A stretch of DNA of 64,000 bases from Escherichia coli phage phiS: sequence record PP449093.1; one strand, written 5' to 3'. Under the pieces are notes generated by a model. It made no database searches, was not told the DNA's origin, and saw only the letters and a list, made by a program, of their open reading frames with translations. This document shows positions 35,535 through 62,203 of this stretch, in pieces. Positions within the stretch are counted from its first letter, which is position 1, and every line of letters begins with the position of its first letter. The translations under genes and the position numbers were made by a program.

Positions 35535-36068
35535 ATGTCTGGTTTTAAGATGTGGGATGATTTTACACAAAAAGAAATTAGAGATAAGTATAAACACGTT
35601 AATGGTATATTGTACCATTTGAAAGACAGTGGAAAGAATGGTCGATGGTATAAGGCAGGAGACCCGGTTAAAGTTTATAAAAATAGTCGAGGTTATCTAT
35701 GTTTTAAGTTTTGGCGCAGTGATGGCTATTCTTTGGTCATTAAAGTTCATAGGGTTGTTTGGTATCTTGAACATGGTACGCAAGTTAAAATGATCGACCA
35801 TGTAGATAGAAACCGAGAAAATAATGCACCGGATAACTTGAGAGAATCCACTTCTCAGGAAAATGCATTCAATCGCGGAAAACTTGATGGTTGTAAGAGC
35901 AAGTATAAAGGAGTGATTAGAACACAGAATAACAAATGGTGTGCTCAGATATCAATCAATCGTAGAAAGGTCCATTTGGGCGTCTTTCTTGACGAAGTTG
36001 ATGCTGCAAAGGCTTATGACGAAGCAGCAAAGGAACATTTTGGAGATTATGCTAGTTTAAATTTTTAG
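35535..36068 (+). CDS. HNH homing endonuclease with AP2 DNA-binding domain
   Basis: HNH_3-like motif IDHVDRNRENNAPDNLRESTSQEN; AP2-like domain YKGVIR...KWCAQISINRRKVHLGVF...AAKAYDEAAKEHFGDYASLNF; inserted between genes 2 and 3. Confidence 0.8.
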   Translation: MSGFKMWDDFTQKEIRDKYKHVNGILYHLKDSGKNGRWYKAGDPVKVYKNSRGYLCFKFWRSDGYSLVIKVHRVVWYLEHGTQVKMIDHVDRNRENNAPDNLRESTSQENAFNRGKLDGCKSKYKGVIRTQNNKWCAQISINRRKVHLGVFLDEVDAAKAYDEAAKEHFGDYASLNF

Positions 36069-43990: not shown

Positions 43991-44566
43991 ATGGCTTTTA
44001 AATATTGGGATGAATCCCTACAAAACGAGATAAAACTTAGATATGCTCATATAGAGGGTATCTTATATTATAGAGTCGATAGTAAAGCTATCAAAGGACG
44101 ACCATTAGGGAGTAGATATAAACACGGCGATTTAGTTAAAGTCAGAACAAATAAAGATGGTCATCTTAGATTTTGGCATAGTAGAGATGACGGTCTTCCT
44201 AGAGTTCATCTATTCGTGCATAGGGTTGTTTGGTTTCTGGAACATGGGACGCAAGTTAGATTAATTGATCATATTGACGGGAATCCTGCTAATAACAATC
44301 CTCCAAATCTTAGGGAGGCAACCGACGCGCAAAATCAACACAATAGAAAGAAGAAGTCTAAAAAGTTTTCTAGTGTGTATAAGGGTGTTAGTAAGTGTAA
44401 CAGGAAGGATTTGCGTAAGAAATGGAGAGCTAGTATAATGGTCAACCTAAAAAGACATGTTCTTGGACAATATGACACAGAAATCGAAGCTGCAATCGCT
44501 TATGATAATGCAGCTAGGAAATTTTATGGAGAATATGCTCTATTGAATTTCCCAGATCCAAAATAA
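43991..44566 (+). CDS. HNH homing endonuclease with AP2 domain
   Basis: HNH motif IDHIDGNPANNNPPNLREATDAQNQHN and AP2-like YKGVSK...IEAAIAYDNAARKFYGEYALLNF; paralog of 35535-36068. Confidence 0.8.
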   Translation: MAFKYWDESLQNEIKLRYAHIEGILYYRVDSKAIKGRPLGSRYKHGDLVKVRTNKDGHLRFWHSRDDGLPRVHLFVHRVVWFLEHGTQVRLIDHIDGNPANNNPPNLREATDAQNQHNRKKKSKKFSSVYKGVSKCNRKDLRKKWRASIMVNLKRHVLGQYDTEIEAAIAYDNAARKFYGEYALLNFPDPK

Positions 44567-47842: not shown

Positions 47843-47846
47843 TAAA

Positions 47847-51436: not shown

Positions 51437-51821
51437 TTTTCTAAAGACTTCCGAAGAGGGAAAGGCTAATAAAGTTGACCGCTTTATCGGTGAATGTCTG
51501 ATGAGTGTTACTTATATGCATTCTGCGCATTTTGGGGTAACTGGTCCTGGATCTTATGCAAAACATAAGGCTCTAGAAGAGTTCTATCTTGAAATGCAAG
51601 AATTGGTTGATAATTTCACTGAAACCAATATTGGGATCACTGGTCGTTATCAGCCAAAGTTGGTCGTCCGCAAGGAGATTAGCGAAATTGCCTATTTGCA
51701 AGAGTTAACGCAAATGGCTAGTGAGATTTATAATGATGTTGATAGCTCGTTACAGAGCGTTTTAGACGATATCAAAGCTCTATGCTTTAAAACAATTTAT
51801 AAACTCACTCGACTGGCTTAA
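51423..51821 (+). CDS. hypothetical protein (132 aa)
   Basis: ORF trimmed to MKFSDFLK overlapping the previous stop. Confidence 0.5.
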   Translation: MKFSDFLKTSEEGKANKVDRFIGECLMSVTYMHSAHFGVTGPGSYAKHKALEEFYLEMQELVDNFTETNIGITGRYQPKLVVRKEISEIAYLQELTQMASEIYNDVDSSLQSVLDDIKALCFKTIYKLTRLA

Positions 51822-52053
51822 TGTTAGCCACTGTGGGATGCATACCAGAAGTAAAAGAATACTAGCATTAACACAACTATTTGGCTTCCTCATACTTTCT
51901 CGTGTTCAATTACTACCGAATCGGAAGACCCGTCTAAGACGAGGAAGGGTTATCATTGGAAAGGGATGGTGAATTGGTTACTATGTTTAACTAGTTTAGC
52001 AAAGGTCGATTCAAACACTACTATACAAATGGACGTGAATAAAATATAATCAA

Positions 52054-52086
52054 AAGCCATCCGAAAGGGTGGCTTTTTCGTTTTTA
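52054..52086 (+). terminator. Rho-independent terminator
   Basis: Hairpin AGCCATCCGAAAGGGTGGCT followed by TTTTTCGTTTTT. Confidence 0.55.
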
Positions 52087-52090
52087 GGTG

Positions 52091-52119
52091 TTGACAACCG
52101 GAATAGGGTATAGCATAAT
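52091..52119 (+). promoter_or_regulatory. early promoter cassette copy 7 (TTGACA-17-CATAAT)
   Basis: Conserved cassette; leader ATCGACAACAAAGGAGAATCAAA ATG. Confidence 0.6.
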
Positions 52120-52148
52120 GCACACATCGACAACAAAGGAGAATCAAA

Positions 52149-52358
52149 ATGATTAATCCAGTAGCCGCAGCACTTGCCCCCGAAGAAACTTTGAAGTATA
52201 TGGTAGAACATGCAGCAAAGAAAGGAGAAATTGTTACTGCCGATGAGATCGTAGAAACCATGCTCCGCGATCCGAAGGGTAACACTGCAAAGTTTTTTGG
52301 TGATCATCTTAAACTGGCTTACAAAACAATTATGGAGACCGTGAAGAATGCAAAATGA
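52149..52358 (+). CDS. hypothetical protein (69 aa)
   Basis: ORF after cassette SD. Confidence 0.55.
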   Translation: MINPVAAALAPEETLKYMVEHAAKKGEIVTADEIVETMLRDPKGNTAKFFGDHLKLAYKTIMETVKNAK

Positions 52359-52686
52359 TGTGATTGAAATTATTATGAATCAATACCGAAACCGGATTTG
52401 GTCTGGACGTATCAAAGAAGAAAAGGCAAAACGGATCATCGAAAAATATGCTGAAAAGACTAAGCAAGCGCCAACGGCTAACAGAGTTATGATTCTTAAA
52501 TGTCTGGTGCTTTCAGGTGACGATATGCCGATTGATGCAGAGACAGCTACCGATTTTCATAAGACCTATCGTCAGTGTGATGTAATTTTTACTTCTGGCT
52601 TCGGTAGTTATGACTCTATTATGTGGAATTTAATGCACCTTGACGCAACGATCTGGGATGTACTTTCAGAGGAGGGTTACAATTGA
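52348..52686 (+). CDS. hypothetical protein (112 aa)
   Basis: Overlapping-start ORF. Confidence 0.5.
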   Translation: MQNDVIEIIMNQYRNRIWSGRIKEEKAKRIIEKYAEKTKQAPTANRVMILKCLVLSGDDMPIDAETATDFHKTYRQCDVIFTSGFGSYDSIMWNLMHLDATIWDVLSEEGYN

Positions 52687-53033: not shown

Positions 53034-53314
53034 AAGACACAAACGGATTTAACAGCATTCAGGTAAGCCCGAATTTTATTGTTCCATCACTGGTGACTAA
53101 GCTGAATGGTCATATGGTCGCTTTGTCTTCCACACCGCCAGAATCAGGAAAGTTTATCACTATCGTAGTTTATGCGGGGCAAATTTTCTCTCATGATTGC
53201 TGCATGAAAAATGATCAGTTGATGGTTGCAAATTATGACTACGGCGACCTTGAATGGGAAGTTTTAGACCTGGCTAAAAGTGCTGAAATTCTGGGCTATA
53301 TTCGATTAATTTAA
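53030..53314 (+). CDS. hypothetical protein (94 aa)
   Basis: ATGA-coupled ORF. Confidence 0.5.
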   Translation: MKDTNGFNSIQVSPNFIVPSLVTKLNGHMVALSSTPPESGKFITIVVYAGQIFSHDCCMKNDQLMVANYDYGDLEWEVLDLAKSAEILGYIRLI

Positions 53315-53332
53315 AATTTTTCTTAGAAAGTG

Positions 53333-53361
53333 TTGACAGCGATCCGGTGTTATTGCACAAT
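53333..53361 (+). promoter_or_regulatory. early promoter cassette copy 8 (TTGACA-17-CACAAT)
   Basis: Conserved cassette; SD AGGAGAATCAACA ATG. Confidence 0.5.
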
Positions 53362-53400
53362 ACACACATCGAAGCACGACACTTTCTAGGAGAATCAACA

Positions 53401-53691
53401 ATGACCACTGAACAATTAATCAAACATATCCGCAGTATTATCTGGGATCTGTCTGGCGATAAAGAGGAACAAGCCGAACGCATTTTAGCTAAACTGTATA
53501 AACGCCGCGATCGTGGAGTATCAGCAAAGAAAGTAGAAACTTTCAAAGAATTGTCTTTCATCGAAGCTAAAAAGGATGGATTAATTTATCAGTTGACAGA
53601 TGGTTACTGGTGCTATGATAATACTCGCTATGACACCTCGACTGATGCATTAAAAGCATGTAATGACCATCTTCGCAAAACTACCATTTGA
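53401..53691 (+). CDS. hypothetical protein (96 aa)
   Basis: ORF trimmed to ATG after cassette SD. Confidence 0.55.
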   Translation: MTTEQLIKHIRSIIWDLSGDKEEQAERILAKLYKRRDRGVSAKKVETFKELSFIEAKKDGLIYQLTDGYWCYDNTRYDTSTDALKACNDHLRKTTI

Positions 53692-53909: not shown

Positions 53910-54128
53910 ATGAAGACCAACGAATCAGTAATACCGCCAGCTTTCGGATATACTCCGGTCGAGATCACAAAATCTAATACTTCTTTCGTGAAAGTGGGAG
54001 AGAAAACGCATATTTCAACTATGCAGGACGGCACACAATATCTATGGTCCGATTTCTGCCAGCGTTACGAGCGTTTATCATGGGCTACCCGCTTATGGTG
54101 TGTTGAGTATAAGGAGATCACAAAATGA
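53910..54128 (+). CDS. hypothetical protein (72 aa)
   Basis: Preceded by GAGGAATATAGAATG. Confidence 0.5.
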   Translation: MKTNESVIPPAFGYTPVEITKSNTSFVKVGEKTHISTMQDGTQYLWSDFCQRYERLSWATRLWCVEYKEITK

Positions 54129-54373
54129 TCGTCGGATACATCCCATATTCAACAACAAAACATATTGTCGGATTCGAAGACATAGAAAAGTCTTGCTTTC
54201 CTCTTAAGGTTGAAGTAGACTTTATTACAGCGAACGGATGGGCTTACGTTACCGTAGAAGAAATGAAGCGCGTAGGATGGGAAAACTGCATTCACCTACC
54301 GCATCTTATCCTAGATGTTCGCGCTGGTGAAATTGATATTGATGGAAAGATCTATGGAGATAATGTAAAATGA
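54125..54373 (+). CDS. hypothetical protein (82 aa)
   Basis: ATGA-coupled ORF. Confidence 0.5.
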   Translation: MIVGYIPYSTTKHIVGFEDIEKSCFPLKVEVDFITANGWAYVTVEEMKRVGWENCIHLPHLILDVRAGEIDIDGKIYGDNVK

Positions 54374-54573
54374 AAATTAAAATTGAAATTTTTGACAATG
54401 GCGGATATTCTTTCATGAAAGGCGTTGAACTTCCTATCATCGTGGAAGGTCGACCGTATGGGCATGATTATCTTGTTGAAACGCAGGAATTACGCAAAGC
54501 TGGCGTACCGATTAAAGGTTATTCTCCTGAGTATAAATGGTGTTTTCTTAGCAAAGAAGCCTGGGAAGTGTAA
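54370..54573 (+). CDS. hypothetical protein, tandem paralog family B member 1
   Basis: MKIKIEIFDNGGYSFMKGVELPIIVEGRP...; paralogous to the following two ORFs. Confidence 0.5.
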   Translation: MKIKIEIFDNGGYSFMKGVELPIIVEGRPYGHDYLVETQELRKAGVPIKGYSPEYKWCFLSKEAWEV

Positions 54574-54630
54574 TTAATTGAGGATTATATTATAAAGATT
54601 GAAATTTTTGGTGATGGCGGATATTCTTTC

Positions 54631-54849
54631 ATGAAAGGTGTTAAACTTCCGATTATTGTTAGAGGAACTCCCTTCTATGATAGTTTCTTGATACCAACAA
54701 GAGAACTACGCAAAGCTGGCGCTTCCTTTGAGGGAATTTATAATGATGATTATGAATGGTGTTTCTTGGATAGGTTTGCCCGTAAAGCAGAAGAAGCACG
54801 AAAAGCATCATTGTTTGCTCGTTTTAATAACTGGTTGAGGAAGCTGTAA
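54631..54849 (+). CDS. hypothetical protein, family B member 2 (start codon unresolved; possible ATA/ATT initiation or N-truncated)
   Basis: Homology to member 1 extends upstream to 54592 where ATA replaces the expected ATG behind an intact GAGGATTATATT SD; first ATG in frame is at 54631. Confidence 0.4.
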   Translation: MKGVKLPIIVRGTPFYDSFLIPTRELRKAGASFEGIYNDDYEWCFLDRFARKAEEARKASLFARFNNWLRKL

Positions 54850-55187
54850 TGAACGAACTGAAAATGTATTTGTTGCTGAATGATTCAGGGTATACCTTCT
54901 TACAAGGTGTCGAACGTGATTCGCGTCCTATTGTATATGGCAAGGGACATCCGACCATTCCTGGGATCATTGTTGTTACGACAACATCACTTCGTCGTGT
55001 GTCGGAAAGCCCATACCTACAAAACGTAAAGCAGGACCGAGAATGGGCTTTCGAGTTAGGTAAAGATCTTGTTGAATGGGTAAACTGTGAAGACAAGAAC
55101 CAACGAAATCATGAAAAGAAGATTGCACGACTTGAACATAGAAGAAAACTTGATGAAATCAAAAACAGGATTCTACAATCAATGTAA
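54849..55187 (+). CDS. hypothetical protein, family B member 3
   Basis: N-terminus LLLNDSGYTFLQGVERD resembles members 1 and 2. Confidence 0.5.
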   Translation: MNELKMYLLLNDSGYTFLQGVERDSRPIVYGKGHPTIPGIIVVTTTSLRRVSESPYLQNVKQDREWAFELGKDLVEWVNCEDKNQRNHEKKIARLEHRRKLDEIKNRILQSM

Positions 55188-55416
55188 CAGAGTATTCATT
55201 GTCCTGATGGAGTCCGAAAACTATCCCGAACTCGCTAAAACGCGTTTTCCGTGCGTTGTTGAAGCATATAAGACAGATGCGCCAGATAAACAGTTTATCG
55301 TGTTAGCGAGCGAAATAGAGCGGTTGGGCGTGATTCCTAAACATGATGAATACGTGTTTCGTAATGTGTACTCTGTACATCATTTTGATGTAGTAGTTAA
55401 TTCACTAATATCATAA
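55153..55416 (+). CDS. hypothetical protein (start uncertain)
   Basis: ORF overlapping the previous gene; candidate starts at 55153 or 55207. Confidence 0.35.
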   Translation: MKSKTGFYNQCNRVFIVLMESENYPELAKTRFPCVVEAYKTDAPDKQFIVLASEIERLGVIPKHDEYVFRNVYSVHHFDVVVNSLIS

Positions 55417-55424
55417 AAAAGTTG

Positions 55425-55453
55425 TTGACAGGGGATCGCGTATCCCCTATACT
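55425..55453 (+). promoter_or_regulatory. early promoter cassette copy 9 (TTGACA-17-TATACT) with GGGGAT/ATCCCC palindrome
   Basis: TTGACAGGGGATCGCGTATCCCCTATACT then conserved leader. Confidence 0.6.
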
Positions 55454-55783: not shown

Positions 55784-56080
55784 ATGGATTTAAACGCGTT
55801 AGGCAGAAATCTTTCTATCTGGGCGGTAGGTGCAATGATCTCGTATCTTGTATTCTGCTTGTATGCCAGATTCGACAAGGACACTAAAGAGGTCGATACA
55901 GGAGCATTTTGTATTGCTGCGATCGTCTGGCCTATAACGTGGATTATTGTAGAAATTGTCATGATCTATAAAGGATTGAAATGTTTTGGTTTATCAATTG
56001 CTGGTAAGCCGGAAGCTAAACCGCGCACGCATAAAGGATTCAGCCCAAAACAGGAAGATGGCGGTCGATATAAACCGTAA
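55784..56080 (+). CDS. membrane protein (98 aa)
   Basis: SD AAGGAGG; two hydrophobic segments. Confidence 0.5.
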   Translation: MDLNALGRNLSIWAVGAMISYLVFCLYARFDKDTKEVDTGAFCIAAIVWPITWIIVEIVMIYKGLKCFGLSIAGKPEAKPRTHKGFSPKQEDGGRYKP

Positions 56081-58513: not shown

Positions 58514-59269
58514 ATGTCACCAATGTTAAAATATGAGGTTATACACAAGACTCCAGAAGATAAACGTTTATATGATTTATATCATTCACGGTTTTATTAT
58601 GATGATGGTTTTCTTAGGTGGAAGATTCACCCGCACCGAAAAGGTGTTATAAACGGATTAGCTGGAAGTGATACCCCCGATGGGTATCGTATTGTATGGA
58701 CTGGCGAGCGATACGAACGTATGCACCGTGTTATCTATCATATGTTTCATGGTCATTGTCCTAAGTATATAGATCATAAAGACCGAGATCGTTATAATAG
58801 CCGCATTGAAAACCTTAGAGAGACGACAAGCAAACAAAATAATATGAATATGAGCAAGACCAAATGCAAAACATATTCGAAGTATAAAGGTGTGTCGTTT
58901 AATAAGAATAAAGGTTATTGGACTGGTGCAATAATGTTGGATGGGAAGTCGATACATTTAGGATATTTTCCCTCTGAGATCGGTGCGGCGTATGCATATA
59001 ATCTTGCAGCGTTGAAACATTTTGGTGATAGGTCTTGTATAAACGAGATTGATGATATAGAATATGCAAAGTCTGAATATGACAAGAAGCTCCAAAAAGC
59101 AGCAAGTTCCCGTCATAGATACGTTTACAAAGTACCAAAACAAGGTAATTACGGTGCTAAAGTTCGCGGTGTGTATATAGGAAGATTTGACACAGAATAT
59201 GATGCGGCACGGGCAGTTAATGCCTATATTATTGAAAATGAACTTGATATAGAACTGAATGAGGTATAA
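58514..59269 (+). CDS. HNH homing endonuclease with two AP2-like domains
   Basis: HNH motif IDHKDRDRYNSRIENLRETTSKQN; AP2-like YKGVSF...GYWTGAIMLDGKSIHLGYF...AAYAYNLAALKHFG and a second AP2-like repeat. Confidence 0.75.
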   Translation: MSPMLKYEVIHKTPEDKRLYDLYHSRFYYDDGFLRWKIHPHRKGVINGLAGSDTPDGYRIVWTGERYERMHRVIYHMFHGHCPKYIDHKDRDRYNSRIENLRETTSKQNNMNMSKTKCKTYSKYKGVSFNKNKGYWTGAIMLDGKSIHLGYFPSEIGAAYAYNLAALKHFGDRSCINEIDDIEYAKSEYDKKLQKAASSRHRYVYKVPKQGNYGAKVRGVYIGRFDTEYDAARAVNAYIIENELDIELNEV

Positions 59270-60113: not shown

Positions 60114-60386
60114 ATGCGTAAGATGTTTAAATCCGGTGTGGCCTATGTTTTTAAATCTGAGCAAGCACATAAAGACTTCTTAGATGATGAATACGAAGGG
60201 GTGAAAGATACCTACGAAGTCATCAAGAATGGGTTTACTGTTCTTAAAGTGTCACCTGTTGGTTATGTAAGTGAAATCTCAGTTGATGGGAAAACATACA
60301 CCGCTAAAGACTTTGATCCGCGTTGGGAATTTATGCTGCTTCCGTGTGAGCGCATTCTGTTCCGTGCTGTTCAATTAGTGAAATGA
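60114..60386 (+). CDS. hypothetical protein, one-module member of paralog family C
   Basis: MRKMFKSGVAYVFKSEQAHKDF...NGFTVLKV...VDGKTYTAKDF...W; module shared with the next two ORFs. Confidence 0.55.
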   Translation: MRKMFKSGVAYVFKSEQAHKDFLDDEYEGVKDTYEVIKNGFTVLKVSPVGYVSEISVDGKTYTAKDFDPRWEFMLLPCERILFRAVQLVK

Positions 60387-60400
60387 TAGAGGATTATATT

Positions 60401-60961
60401 ATGGTACAGAAAACGTATAAATTGTATCCGGCTAAGTCTTCAAATGATGCTGTTTTTGAACGAGGTCGTTATTACACTTTCCGTAATGCTGAGTCCGCAG
60501 AGGAATTTGTTAAACGCTATCCACAACATAACAAGTTCCTGTATGGTGTGCTTCACAAGGGCTTTAAAGTTCTGACTGTTAATGTTATGGGTAAAGTGTA
60601 TTTGGTAGAAACTCATGATTATGAGGGCGCGTCAATCATGATTGATGCCAGCGAGCGCAAATACTTTAAGCGTATCACTAAAAAGCAGTTTGAAGAAATG
60701 AAGCCAGTTAAGAAAGAAGAATCGCTGGAAGATCTGATTAACTTGTTTGCGAAGTCTTCTTTGGTATCATTGACGCTGGAAGATTTTAGCGTTGATAATC
60801 AGCTATACTTTAAAAATGCCGATGACCTGAAAGATTTTTTGATTGAGAATAAACCTAAGCTAGAAACCTATATCAAAGGTGAGATTAAGCGCATGGAACA
60901 TCAAGCAAAATATAGCGCAGATAAAGTAGCTGAACTGAAAGAGATCCAAAAGTCACTTTAA
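60401..60961 (+). CDS. hypothetical protein, family C (one N-terminal module plus coiled-coil tail)
   Basis: Preceded by GAGGATTATATTATG; N-terminal module and C-terminal tail LKDFLIENKPKLETYIKGEIKRMEHQ paralogous to 61025-62203. Confidence 0.55.
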   Translation: MVQKTYKLYPAKSSNDAVFERGRYYTFRNAESAEEFVKRYPQHNKFLYGVLHKGFKVLTVNVMGKVYLVETHDYEGASIMIDASERKYFKRITKKQFEEMKPVKKEESLEDLINLFAKSSLVSLTLEDFSVDNQLYFKNADDLKDFLIENKPKLETYIKGEIKRMEHQAKYSADKVAELKEIQKSL

Positions 60962-61024: not shown

Positions 61025-62203
61025 ATGGCTCAATTCTTTGAAGGGCATTACTATGCATTCCGTGAAGGCGGTAAAGATGAGTTTCTAGACTTTTCTCGCT
61101 ATTCAATTACTCTGACCGATGATTCGCGCCGTGGTCATATTCGGGTTGCTGAAATCGTAGAAAACGGTTTTAAAGTATTAGAAAAAGATGACCACGGTCA
61201 TGTTGTTACTATTGAAGCTGGAGATGTAGTTTATTCCTCTGAGGATATTGTGGACTATTGGGCTACTATGTTTATGCACAATGAGCGTAAATTCTTTAAA
61301 CGTATCTCAAAAGAGGCATACGAAGCAATGAACAAGAAAGAAGATGTAATGCCGACTTACTTTGAAAAAGGTAAGTGCTATTCGTTTACCCCAGAAGGTT
61401 TGCAAGAATTTAAGCGATTCTGGGGAGAGCATGATCCAGATCACAAAGAAGCCATGAAACTTGTTGATTTTGTTGAATATGGCTTTTTAGTTGAAGAAGA
61501 ATTTCATGGGTCGGCTACCATGATCACCGCGAAAGGTGAAACCGTTAAGGCGGATCGTTTTTGTGATCAATGGGCGTGTGTGATTGACGGTGGCGAATTT
61601 GAATACTTCGCTGAAATCACGAAACAACAATTTCATTCTATGCAAGCGGCTGGTCAGAGATTTAAAGTAGGTGAACGCTACAAGCCAAATCAGCATAATT
61701 TGCCATATTGGTTTACCGCTGAAACTGTATCAAGTCATGTTGTTGAAATTGTTCAAAAGCTGGGACAAGGATTTAAGGTAACTAAAGTAGATGATTATGG
61801 AAGTGTTGACGCGGTTGAAATTGATGGTGTAGAATATACACCGAAATCTTTCGGGCTTTGCTGGTATCACCTGATCAGCAATGATGAACGTTATTACTTT
61901 GTTGAACTGCCATCTGAACCGGAAGAAGCACTAGAAGATCATGATCATCTGTCTGAACTGGTTAAACTGTTTGGTGATCTGCCGGATGGTGTAGGCGTGG
62001 CGGTAATGGGTGAAGGTGCTGTTATCCGAAACCTGAAAGACCTTAAAAAGTTCTTGATTGACATGCTGCCTAAACTTGATGATAATCTCGATAAAGATAT
62101 TCAGAATCGCAAAGAAATTGTTAAAGATACTGAAAAAGAGATCGAAGAGATTCGAGCAATTCGCCAGAAGGTGAAAGCAGTAAAGAAAAAAGTTAGTGCT
62201 TGA
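61025..62203 (+). CDS. hypothetical protein, family C (three tandem internal modules plus coiled-coil tail)
   Basis: 392-aa ORF with three approximately 100-aa repeats (Y-x-F ... GF-x-VL ... ERKFFKRI-like ends) and C-terminal LKDLKKFLIDMLPKLDDNLDKD... coiled coil. Confidence 0.6.
   Translation: MAQFFEGHYYAFREGGKDEFLDFSRYSITLTDDSRRGHIRVAEIVENGFKVLEKDDHGHVVTIEAGDVVYSSEDIVDYWATMFMHNERKFFKRISKEAYEAMNKKEDVMPTYFEKGKCYSFTPEGLQEFKRFWGEHDPDHKEAMKLVDFVEYGFLVEEEFHGSATMITAKGETVKADRFCDQWACVIDGGEFEYFAEITKQQFHSMQAAGQRFKVGERYKPNQHNLPYWFTAETVSSHVVEIVQKLGQGFKVTKVDDYGSVDAVEIDGVEYTPKSFGLCWYHLISNDERYYFVELPSEPEEALEDHDHLSELVKLFGDLPDGVGVAVMGEGAVIRNLKDLKKFLIDMLPKLDDNLDKDIQNRKEIVKDTEKEIEEIRAIRQKVKAVKKKVSA

What the first reader, a model, noticed from the sequence alone, without database searches (positions are those of the whole stretch)
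54370..55187. Second tandem paralog trio (family B); middle copy has ATA where ATG is expected
ORFs 54370-54573, about 54592-54849 and 54849-55187 share an N-terminal motif (IEIF-x-x-GGYSFMKGV-x-LPIIV / LLLNDSGYTFLQGVE). In the middle copy the sequence GAGGATTATATTATA AAG ATT GAA ATT aligns codon for codon with the first copy, but the initiator is ATA at 54592. The gene therefore either initiates at a non-canonical AUA/AUU, is N-terminally truncated to Met at 54631, or is a decaying duplicate.
Basis: seen in the sequence. Interest (0 to 1): 0.5.

Follow-up and report, generated by a model that had tools for sequence, protein, structure and literature searches.

The report
Private start-codon loss in phage paralog
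One gene in a tandem array of small, uncharacterised early genes of an RB49-like coliphage carries a single-base change, ATG to ATA, found in no related phage, so this is an ordinary recent knock-down mutation (or a base-call error), not an unusual start codon.

Summary
Copy 1 (54370-54573), copy 2 (54592-54849) and copy 3 (54849-55187) are paralogs, and copy 2 has ATA at 54592-54594 behind a good Shine-Dalgarno (GAGGA, 54580-54584).

The ATA is not a conserved non-canonical start. All 27 GenBank Krischvirus records with this context have ATG. So do ten metagenome assemblies whose copy-1 protein is identical to the window's. In five of those, the 480 nt spanning copy 1, spacer and copy 2 differ from the window at one base only, 54594.

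The window is E. coli phage phiS. Its depositors annotated the 72-aa ORF that starts at Met13 (WWV92437.1), a product on record in no other genome.

Best reading: a very recent start-codon loss on an otherwise intact allele, leaving leaky AUA initiation at a few percent. It is probably tolerated because half of the relatives have collapsed copies 1 and 2 into one gene.

The array has five members, not three: 54125-54373 and 55153-55416 also match a profile built from distant relatives. The roughly 60-aa domain has no known function.

Low interest.

The parts
54125..54373 (+). First, most divergent member of the tandem array (82 aa, phrog_15979). Its stop overlaps the copy-1 start (ATGA).
   Evidence: Matches a profile built from distant family members only, E=2.6e-5 among 213 window ORFs with the next-best non-family ORF at 0.63. 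PHROG assignment. Shallow clade-only hhalign missed it.
54370..54573 (+). Copy 1 (67 aa, phrog_7345). It lacks the C-terminal helix that copy 2 has.
   Evidence: An identical protein occurs on 23 metagenome contigs.
54580..54584 (+). Shine-Dalgarno GAGGA serving the copy-2 start, 8 nt before ATA counted from the last G of GAGG.
   Evidence: duplex -6.0 kcal/mol, comparable to the sites of copy 1 and copy 3. The context TTGAGGATTATATT is invariant in relatives.
54592..54594 (+). ATA in place of the ancestral ATG start of copy 2. The variant base is A at 54594.
   Evidence: G in all 27 INPHARED records with this context, in 12 fetched phage loci and one metagenome contig, and in ten Logan/ENA assemblies. 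It is the sole difference in 480 nt from L017-L021.
54592..54849 (+). Copy 2, the full-length reading frame (85 codons, phrog_7345), intact apart from the start codon.
54631..54849 (+). The 72-aa ORF from Met13. This is the product annotated in the deposited genome (WWV92437.1, E. coli phage phiS).
   Evidence: The product is on record in this one genome only.
54398..54422 (+). 25-nt stretch ATGGCGGATATTCTTTCATGAAAGG in copy 1, identical to 54614-54638 in copy 2. It is a substrate for unequal crossover or gene conversion.
   Evidence: The single gene of L014-L016 switches from copy-1-like to copy-2-like sequence inside this stretch.
54614..54638 (+). The second copy of the 25-nt identical stretch, in copy 2. 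It contains the internal ATG 54631.
54849..55187 (+). Copy 3 (112 aa, phrog_16316). Its ATG overlaps the copy-2 stop (TAATG), and it has its own SD, GAGGA.
   Evidence: E=6.2e-12. The SD is unpaired in the centroid fold.
55153..55416 (+). Fifth member of the array (87 aa, phrog_17411). Its start overlaps the end of copy 3 by 35 nt.
   Evidence: Profile E=2.9e-6. The domain begins upstream of Met 55207, so ATG 55153 is the likely start, as annotated in RB49 and as called in L027.

Best explanation
The window comes from E. coli phage phiS, a Krischvirus (an RB49-like, T4-type phage). Within an early, tightly packed run of genes it carries five tandem paralogs of a small (about 60 aa) uncharacterised phage domain. 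The third member (copy 2) has suffered a single G-to-A transition that turned its ancestral ATG start into ATA. Everything else about the gene is intact: the Shine-Dalgarno, the spacing, and all 84 downstream codons. So this is a very recent start-codon loss and not a conserved non-canonical initiator. The expected consequence, which is inferred, is a strong knock-down. Ribosomes still bind the good SD, but fMet-tRNA pairs poorly with AUA (or with the adjacent in-frame AUU at 54589), leaving a few percent of the normal full-length protein. Initiation at the internal Met13 is unlikely to contribute much and would give a product without the conserved N-terminal strands. The loss is probably tolerated because the array is redundant and variable in copy number. 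About half of the sequenced relatives have only one gene where this phage has copies 1 and 2, and recombinants between the two copies exist in nature.
For: Shown: the window is a Krischvirus, and its proteins match NCBI WWV92437.1 and WWV92438.1 of E. coli phage phiS. ATG is present in 27 of 27 phage records that contain this context, and no record holds a 28-mer with the ATA. ATG is also present in 12 fetched phage loci, one metagenome contig and ten Logan/ENA assemblies. In five independent assemblies (L017-L021) the 480 nt from 54370 to 54849 differ from the window only at 54594, whereas copy 3 differs at 13-15 sites. Among about 42 genes mapped from the closest long contigs, copy 2 is the only one that lost its start, and there are no mid-gene frameshifts. 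By alignment boundaries, 29 of 58 GenBank relatives carry copy 1 plus copy 2 and 29 carry a single gene; the single-gene state was verified in G37-3, G2494 and JSE. L014-L016 carry a copy-1/copy-2 recombinant whose crossover lies in the shared 25-nt stretch. From the literature: AUA initiates at about 1-2% of AUG in E. coli in vivo (bioRxiv 10.1101/063800). A T4 rIIB AUG-to-AUA mutant lost about 85% of translation at 25 C and was temperature-sensitive (PMC5499595, which cites the original study). Inferred: the size of the knock-down here, and the tolerance through redundancy.
Against: No reads, proteomics or expression data are available, so a base-call error cannot be excluded and the residual expression level is unknown. 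In vitro, an AUA mRNA can be translated as well as an AUG mRNA in some contexts (PMC5499595), so the knock-down could be milder than 1-2%. The single private change in 480 nt falls on the start codon, which is somewhat unexpected for a neutral event and could point to selection or to an artefact. The orthologues evolve fast (pN/pS about 0.2-0.4 within an allele class and 0.6-0.9 between classes), so the constraint on the gene is weak in any case.
Confidence: 0.8

Rival explanations
1. Sequencing or assembly error: the real phiS genome has ATG at 54592-54594 and the gene is normal.
For: The change is a singleton in a block otherwise identical to five other assemblies. It hits the one codon where a single substitution matters most. 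No other genome on record encodes the truncated product.
Against: The rest of the window shows no sign of poor quality: no mid-gene frameshifts or premature stops in about 42 genes compared with close relatives. By general knowledge, substitution errors in a consensus of a cultured-phage assembly are much rarer than real private SNPs. The window differs from its closest relatives at 1-5% of positions elsewhere.
Confidence: 0.12
2. Selected down-tuning or silencing: the AUA allele was favoured in phiS, for instance because copy 2 is harmful on, or is sensed by, its isolation or propagation host. AUA then serves as a deliberate low-level, possibly temperature-dependent, start.
For: The only private change in 480 nt hits the start codon. 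The SD and reading frame are fully preserved, so leaky expression is possible. Copy number of this gene pair is evidently under flux in the clade.
Against: It is a single event in a single genome, so there is no recurrence and no statistical support. No function is known for the family. Nothing links the protein to any host system.
Confidence: 0.06
3. The functional product is the N-terminally truncated 72-aa protein starting at Met 54631, as annotated in GenBank.
For: It is the first canonical in-frame start, and it is what the depositors' annotation of phiS reports. An SD-like GGUGAU with good pairing energy (-8.9 kcal/mol) lies upstream.
Against: That SD-like element is 14 nt from the ATG, outside the usual spacing, and it pairs with the AUG region in the predicted local fold, which is not itself significantly stable. 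The codon is TTG in PHB13 and G37-3 and is an internal Met of the domain in all family members. The truncation removes residues 1-12, including the nearly invariant K2-I5 and invariant Y11, and the profile score falls from 62.9 to 38.8 bits.
Confidence: 0.04
4. Read-through of the copy-1 TAA yields a copy-1/copy-2 fusion, making a separate copy-2 start unnecessary.
For: Copies 1 and 2 are in the same frame, separated by TAA plus six sense codons. Natural two-domain fusions of this family exist (P0014, P0018, P0020, P0028; 142-159 aa).
Against: By general knowledge, TAA followed by T is an efficient terminator in E. coli. The window encodes no tRNA and so no suppressor. The in-frame relation is not conserved: the offset is 223 nt in KMB43. 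Relatives keep an independent SD and ATG for copy 2.
Confidence: 0.01

Closest known systems
T4 rIIB initiation-codon mutant (AUG to AUA), the classic leaky, temperature-sensitive start-codon mutation
   Same: The same base change (a G-to-A transition in the third position of the start codon) in a T4-type phage infecting E. coli, with an intact SD. That mutant kept roughly 15% of translation at 25 C and was temperature-sensitive (as summarised in PMC5499595).
   Different: That mutant was selected in the laboratory in a gene with a known phenotype. Here the change sits in a natural isolate's genome, in a gene of unknown function, and no expression data exist.
Genes with conserved non-canonical starts (E. 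coli infC AUU, pcnB AUU)
   Same: A near-cognate AUN codon sits behind a normal SD at the position of the start.
   Different: In infC the AUU or AUC start is conserved across bacteria and has a regulatory role (PMC5499595). Here every orthologue has ATG, so the defining feature, conservation, is absent.
Copy-number-variable tandem paralog arrays in the plastic early regions of T4-like phages
   Same: Small overlapping early genes behind sigma-70-type promoters. The paralogs are 25-60% identical. There is presence/absence polymorphism among close relatives and a recombinant collapsed form.
   Different: This particular domain family (phrog_7345, 13367, 16316, 15979, 17411) has no Pfam model and no characterised member. 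That all five neighbours belong to one family had not been recorded in the PHROG split.

Membership tests
Small phage domain family represented by phrog_7345 / phrog_13367 (signature MKhKLLNDGGYxF..V.FPVVVEG...V...EL.R.GA...W.F) | Significant match to the family profile | tested here: met
   PHROGs: copy 1 7.7e-30 and copy 2 1.5e-22 to phrog_7345; both also match phrog_13367 at about 1e-5. Independent profile from distant members: copy 1 4e-21, copy 2 2e-19, copy 3 6e-12, 55111-55416 3e-6, 54125-54373 3e-5.
Small phage domain family represented by phrog_7345 / phrog_13367 | A known fold or biochemical function shared by its members | tested here: inconclusive
   No Pfam family. All relatives are annotated 'hypothetical protein'. 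The AlphaFold model from a 14-sequence alignment has pLDDT 51, too poor for a fold search, so none was run.
Gene with a genuine (maintained) non-canonical AUA/AUU start codon | The non-AUG codon is conserved in orthologues | tested here: not met
   ATG in 27 of 27 phage records, in 13 fetched loci and in ten metagenome assemblies. The ATA is private to the window.
Gene with a genuine (maintained) non-canonical AUA/AUU start codon | Protein demonstrably initiated at that codon | not testable with these tools
   Needs ribosome profiling, N-terminal proteomics or a reporter fusion.
Pseudogene / decaying duplicate | Loss of an element required for expression | tested here: met
   The ancestral ATG is replaced by ATA.
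Pseudogene / decaying duplicate | Further disabling lesions or excess non-synonymous change in the body of the gene | tested here: not met
   The remaining 255 nt are identical to the intact allele in L017-L021. There is no stop or frameshift.
Tandem array shaped by unequal crossover / gene conversion | Copy-number polymorphism among close relatives, with recombinant junctions inside shared sequence | tested here: met
   29 two-copy against 29 one-copy GenBank records by alignment boundaries; one-copy loci verified in L004, L005 and L007. L014-L016 carry copy-1 nt 1-53 joined to the copy-2 body, with the switch inside the 25-nt identical stretch.
Programmed stop-codon read-through fusion | Conserved in-frame arrangement and a leaky stop context or suppressor tRNA | tested here: not met
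   In frame in the window but offset by 223 nt in KMB43. The stop is TAA followed by T. The window has no tRNA genes.

The most novel reading that the evidence does not exclude
The ATG-to-ATA change is a selected escape or down-tuning mutation. Under this reading the copy-2 protein is costly on, or is sensed by a defence system of, the host on which phiS was isolated or propagated. The phage silenced it by the smallest possible change while keeping a leaky, perhaps temperature-dependent, AUA start and a 60%-identical back-up gene next door. That would make this uncharacterised five-gene family a host-interaction module and would provide a natural handle on its function.
Probability: 0.05. Interest if true: 0.5.

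Novelty: new member of a known kind. Interest (0 to 1): 0.15.

Why it matters
It matters little for biology at large. The result shows that the ATA is a one-genome lesion and not a phage trick for non-canonical initiation, so it should not be cited as a natural AUA start.

It has some practical value for annotation. The deposited 72-aa ORF (WWV92437.1) is probably an artefact of start-codon loss and not a real protein. The five neighbouring genes, currently split over four or five PHROGs, belong to one domain family that also occurs as two-domain fusions in other phages.

The locus is also a clean natural example of copy-number flux: duplication, gene conversion, collapse by unequal crossover, and point knock-down within one small array.

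Tried and rejected
1. IMG/VR scans gave nothing usable: neither the start-context pattern nor the copy-2 protein. The genome contigs pattern scan also found nothing. The metagenome scan gave one short contig, L008, with ATG, and that contig is an inverted chimera.

2. The look-up of encoding contigs reported the 72-aa product as not on record. The exact cluster look-up did find it once, in NCBI, so the first result reflected the limits of that index.

3. hhalign on shallow clade-only alignments did not link the two flanking genes to the trio (probability below 2%). I rejected that negative after a profile from distant relatives detected both flanking genes.

4. The AlphaFold2 model of copy 2 was too poor to use (pLDDT 51), so I did not run a fold search.

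5. Pfam gave only sub-threshold noise: DUF4453 and wHTH_TTC3 at E about 0.1.

6. Two hits of the exhaustive search, P0013 and P0017, are internally repetitive proteins. I discarded them as spurious.

7. RNA folding around the copy-2 start and the copy-2/copy-3 junction showed no structure beyond shuffled controls (z = +0.66 and -0.25). I therefore make no structural argument about coupling or polarity.

8. I found no paper on phage phiS.

9. I considered a phage tRNA that might decode AUA at initiation or suppress TAA. The window has no tRNA genes.

Full report
**What is in the sequence.**
- Copy 1 is ATG 54370 to TAA 54571-54573 (67 aa).
- An 18-nt spacer follows, with a Shine-Dalgarno GAGGA at 54580-54584.
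- ATA sits at 54592-54594, and the frame stays open for 85 codons to TAA 54847-54849.
- Copy 3 starts at ATG 54849, overlapping that stop (TAATG), and ends at 55187 (112 aa).
- The first canonical in-frame start in copy 2 is ATG 54631 (Met13).
- The codon just before the ATA is an in-frame ATT (54589).
- Copies 1 and 2 are in the same frame.

**Paralogy.**

| Comparison | Method | Result |
|---|---|---|
| copy 1 / copy 2 | BLASTP | 60% identity, E=4e-27 |
| copy 2 / copy 3 | BLASTP | E=4e-6 |
| copy 1 / copy 3 | BLASTP | E=9e-5 |
| copies 1 and 2 | PHROGs | both phrog_7345; weak match to phrog_13367 |
| copy 3 | PHROGs | phrog_16316 |

- Pfam has nothing.
- An exhaustive profile search of 1.84 billion representative proteins found only 24 clusters.
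- These are mostly proteins of 65-90 aa with the signature MKhKLLNDGGYxF..V.FPVVVEG...V...EL.R.GA...W.F.
- Four of them (142-159 aa) carry two such domains fused in one chain.
- tblastn with one distant member shows the family scattered through sipho-, podo- and T4-like phages of Gammaproteobacteria, always annotated "hypothetical protein".

**The array has five members.**
- I built an HMM only from those distant relatives, with no Krischvirus sequences, and searched all 213 window ORFs of at least 45 aa.

| Window ORF | E-value |
|---|---|
| copy 1 | 4e-21 |
| copy 2 | 2e-19 |
| copy 3 | 6e-12 |
| downstream gene (ORF 55111-55416) | 2.9e-6 |
| upstream gene 54125-54373 | 2.6e-5 |
| next-best ORF | 0.63 |

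- So five consecutive genes, 54125-55416, belong to the family.
- An earlier hhalign test with shallow clade-only alignments missed the two flanking genes.
- In the downstream gene the domain starts before Met 55207. Its real start is therefore probably ATG 55153, as annotated in RB49 and as called in close relatives.

**What genome this is.**
- The window is a Krischvirus, an RB49-like T4-type coliphage. It is about 95% identical to JSE, KMB43 and others over 24 kb.
- An exact-sequence look-up shows the Met13-truncated 72-aa product and the window's copy 3 are NCBI WWV92437.1 and WWV92438.1 of "Escherichia coli phage phiS", 168,209 bp.
- So the depositors annotated the truncated ORF. That product is on record for this genome only.

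**Is the ATA a feature of the gene or of this genome?**
- In 12 fetched GenBank relatives and one metagenome contig the codon is ATG, in an invariant context TTGAGGATTATATT-ATG-AAGATTGAAAT.
- I ran a 34-nt query in which every 28-mer seed spans the G of ATG. It hit 27 phage records, all with ATG.
- The equivalent query with the window's ATA hit nothing.
- Looking up the window's copy-1 protein gave ten further Logan/ENA assemblies from different sequencing runs. All have ATG and a full-length gene of 85-86 aa.
- Five of them (L017-L021) are 97.4-98.9% identical to the window over 1350 nt.
- In those five, the 480 nt from 54370 to 54849 differ from the window at one position only: 54594, A in the window and G elsewhere. 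Copy 3 next door differs at 13-15 positions.
- The ATA is therefore a derived, private, single-base change on an allele that is otherwise identical to intact ones. It is not a conserved non-canonical start, and apart from the start codon the gene shows no decay.

**Sequence quality control.**
- I mapped about 42 genes called on the two closest long contigs (L027, L028) onto the window. Copy 2 was the only gene that lost its start.
- The other flags were benign. Two stop codons have shifted by 1-4 codons, one difference is a 3'-end indel in the relative, and one start changed from ATG to TTG at 52683.
- No gene has a mid-gene frameshift, so nothing suggests a poor assembly. A base-call error at 54594 still cannot be excluded without reads.

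**Likely consequence (inferred).**
- The SD and its spacing are as good as those of copies 1 and 3.
- In E. coli, AUA, AUU, AUC and CUG support about 1-2% of AUG-level initiation in vivo (bioRxiv 10.1101/063800).
- A T4 rIIB AUG-to-AUA mutant lost about 85% of translation at 25 C and was temperature-sensitive. In vitro, AUA can do much better in some contexts (PMC5499595).
- I therefore expect a strong but leaky knock-down of full-length copy 2.
- Initiation at Met13 is unlikely to matter:
  - The only SD-like element is 14 nt upstream.
  - That codon is TTG in PHB13 and G37-3.
  - The product would lack the nearly invariant K2-I5 and the invariant Y11.
  - The profile score falls from 62.9 to 38.8 bits.
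- Copy 3 has its own SD, which is unpaired in the centroid fold, so polarity on copy 3 need not be large. Neither junction shows structure beyond shuffled controls.

**Why it may be tolerated.**
- The copy-1/copy-2 pair is polymorphic in the clade.
- Judging by where the alignments begin, 29 of 58 GenBank relatives have both genes and 29 have a single 258-nt gene directly after the 249-nt gene. I verified the single-gene state in G37-3, G2494 and JSE.
- Contigs L014-L016 carry a single gene. Its first 53 nt match the window's copy 1. Its body is 100% identical to the window's copy 2 for about 200 nt.
- The switch lies inside the 25-nt stretch that is identical in the two copies (54398-54422 and 54614-54638). 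That is the signature of collapse by unequal crossover.
- Compared with PHB13 and G37-3, the window's copy-2 N-terminus also looks partly converted towards copy 1.
- Orthologues of copy 2 evolve fast: pN/pS is about 0.2-0.4 within an allele class and 0.6-0.9 between classes.
- The genes lie between sigma-70-type promoter-like sites at 53593 and 55425, with no predicted terminator that would end the unit between them. This fits an early polycistronic unit.

**Rivals.**
- Base-call error, about 0.12.
- Selected silencing or down-tuning, about 0.06: one event in one genome, with no function known for the family.
- A functional Met13-truncated product, about 0.04.
- A TAA read-through fusion, about 0.01. 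The window has no tRNA genes, the in-frame relation is not conserved in KMB43, and TAA followed by T is a strong stop.

**Verdict.**
An ancestral start has been lost, but this is neither a maintained AUA start nor a visibly decaying gene.
- It is an ordinary, recent start-codon mutation, or an error, in one deposited genome. Interest is low.

Noticed in passing
window 52683-52685: A second start codon is weakened relative to the closest relatives: ATG in L027 and L028 is TTG in the window (ACAAATGA becomes ACAATTGA). The same base change turns the last codon of the upstream overlapping gene from Lys to Asn.
   Followed up: partly
window 53314-53401: The window lacks the roughly 1.1-kb module with the gp38 tail-fibre adhesin (Pfam Gp38_N/GP38) and a 73-aa gene. 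RB49, PHB13, L027 and L028 carry that module at this position; L029 and L030 lack it too.
   Followed up: no
window 54370-54849 compared with L017-L021: This 480-nt block is identical (apart from 54594) in six phages that differ by about 4% in the adjacent copy 3 and by 1-5% elsewhere. That suggests recent recombinational spread of this allele block.
   Followed up: partly
window 35535-36068, 43991-44566, 58514-59269: Three paralogous ORFs (BLASTP E=1e-13 to 1e-46). The third corresponds to an HNH_3/AP2 homing-endonuclease gene that is present in L027 but absent at that position in L028, which suggests a mobile endonuclease polymorphism.
   Followed up: no
window 60114-60386, 60383-60961, 61025-62203: Another set of adjacent paralogs with internally repeated segments (BLASTP E about 1e-5 to 1e-6).
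   Followed up: no
window 55425-55453: A near-consensus sigma-70-type promoter (TTGACA-17-TATACT) whose spacer is a perfect GC-rich hairpin (GGGGATCGCGTATCCCC), directly after the array. The hairpin may also act as a terminator or RNA-processing signal for the upstream unit.
   Followed up: no
window 51821-52149 compared with L027 4350-6494: L027 carries a 714-aa ORF (faint Ig_2 hit) inserted here. It is absent from the window, L028 and L029.
   Followed up: no
L008 (MAVA01000126.1), around position 735: This metagenome contig runs through copy 2 and copy 3 and then continues as the reverse complement of copy 1 and the upstream genes. It is an inverted chimeric join, probably an assembly artefact at the paralogous repeat.
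   Followed up: no
window 47843-47845 and 56078-56080: Stop codons are created 1 and 4 codons earlier than in the closest relatives (GAA to TAA in both cases). These are harmless C-terminal shortenings.
   Followed up: yes
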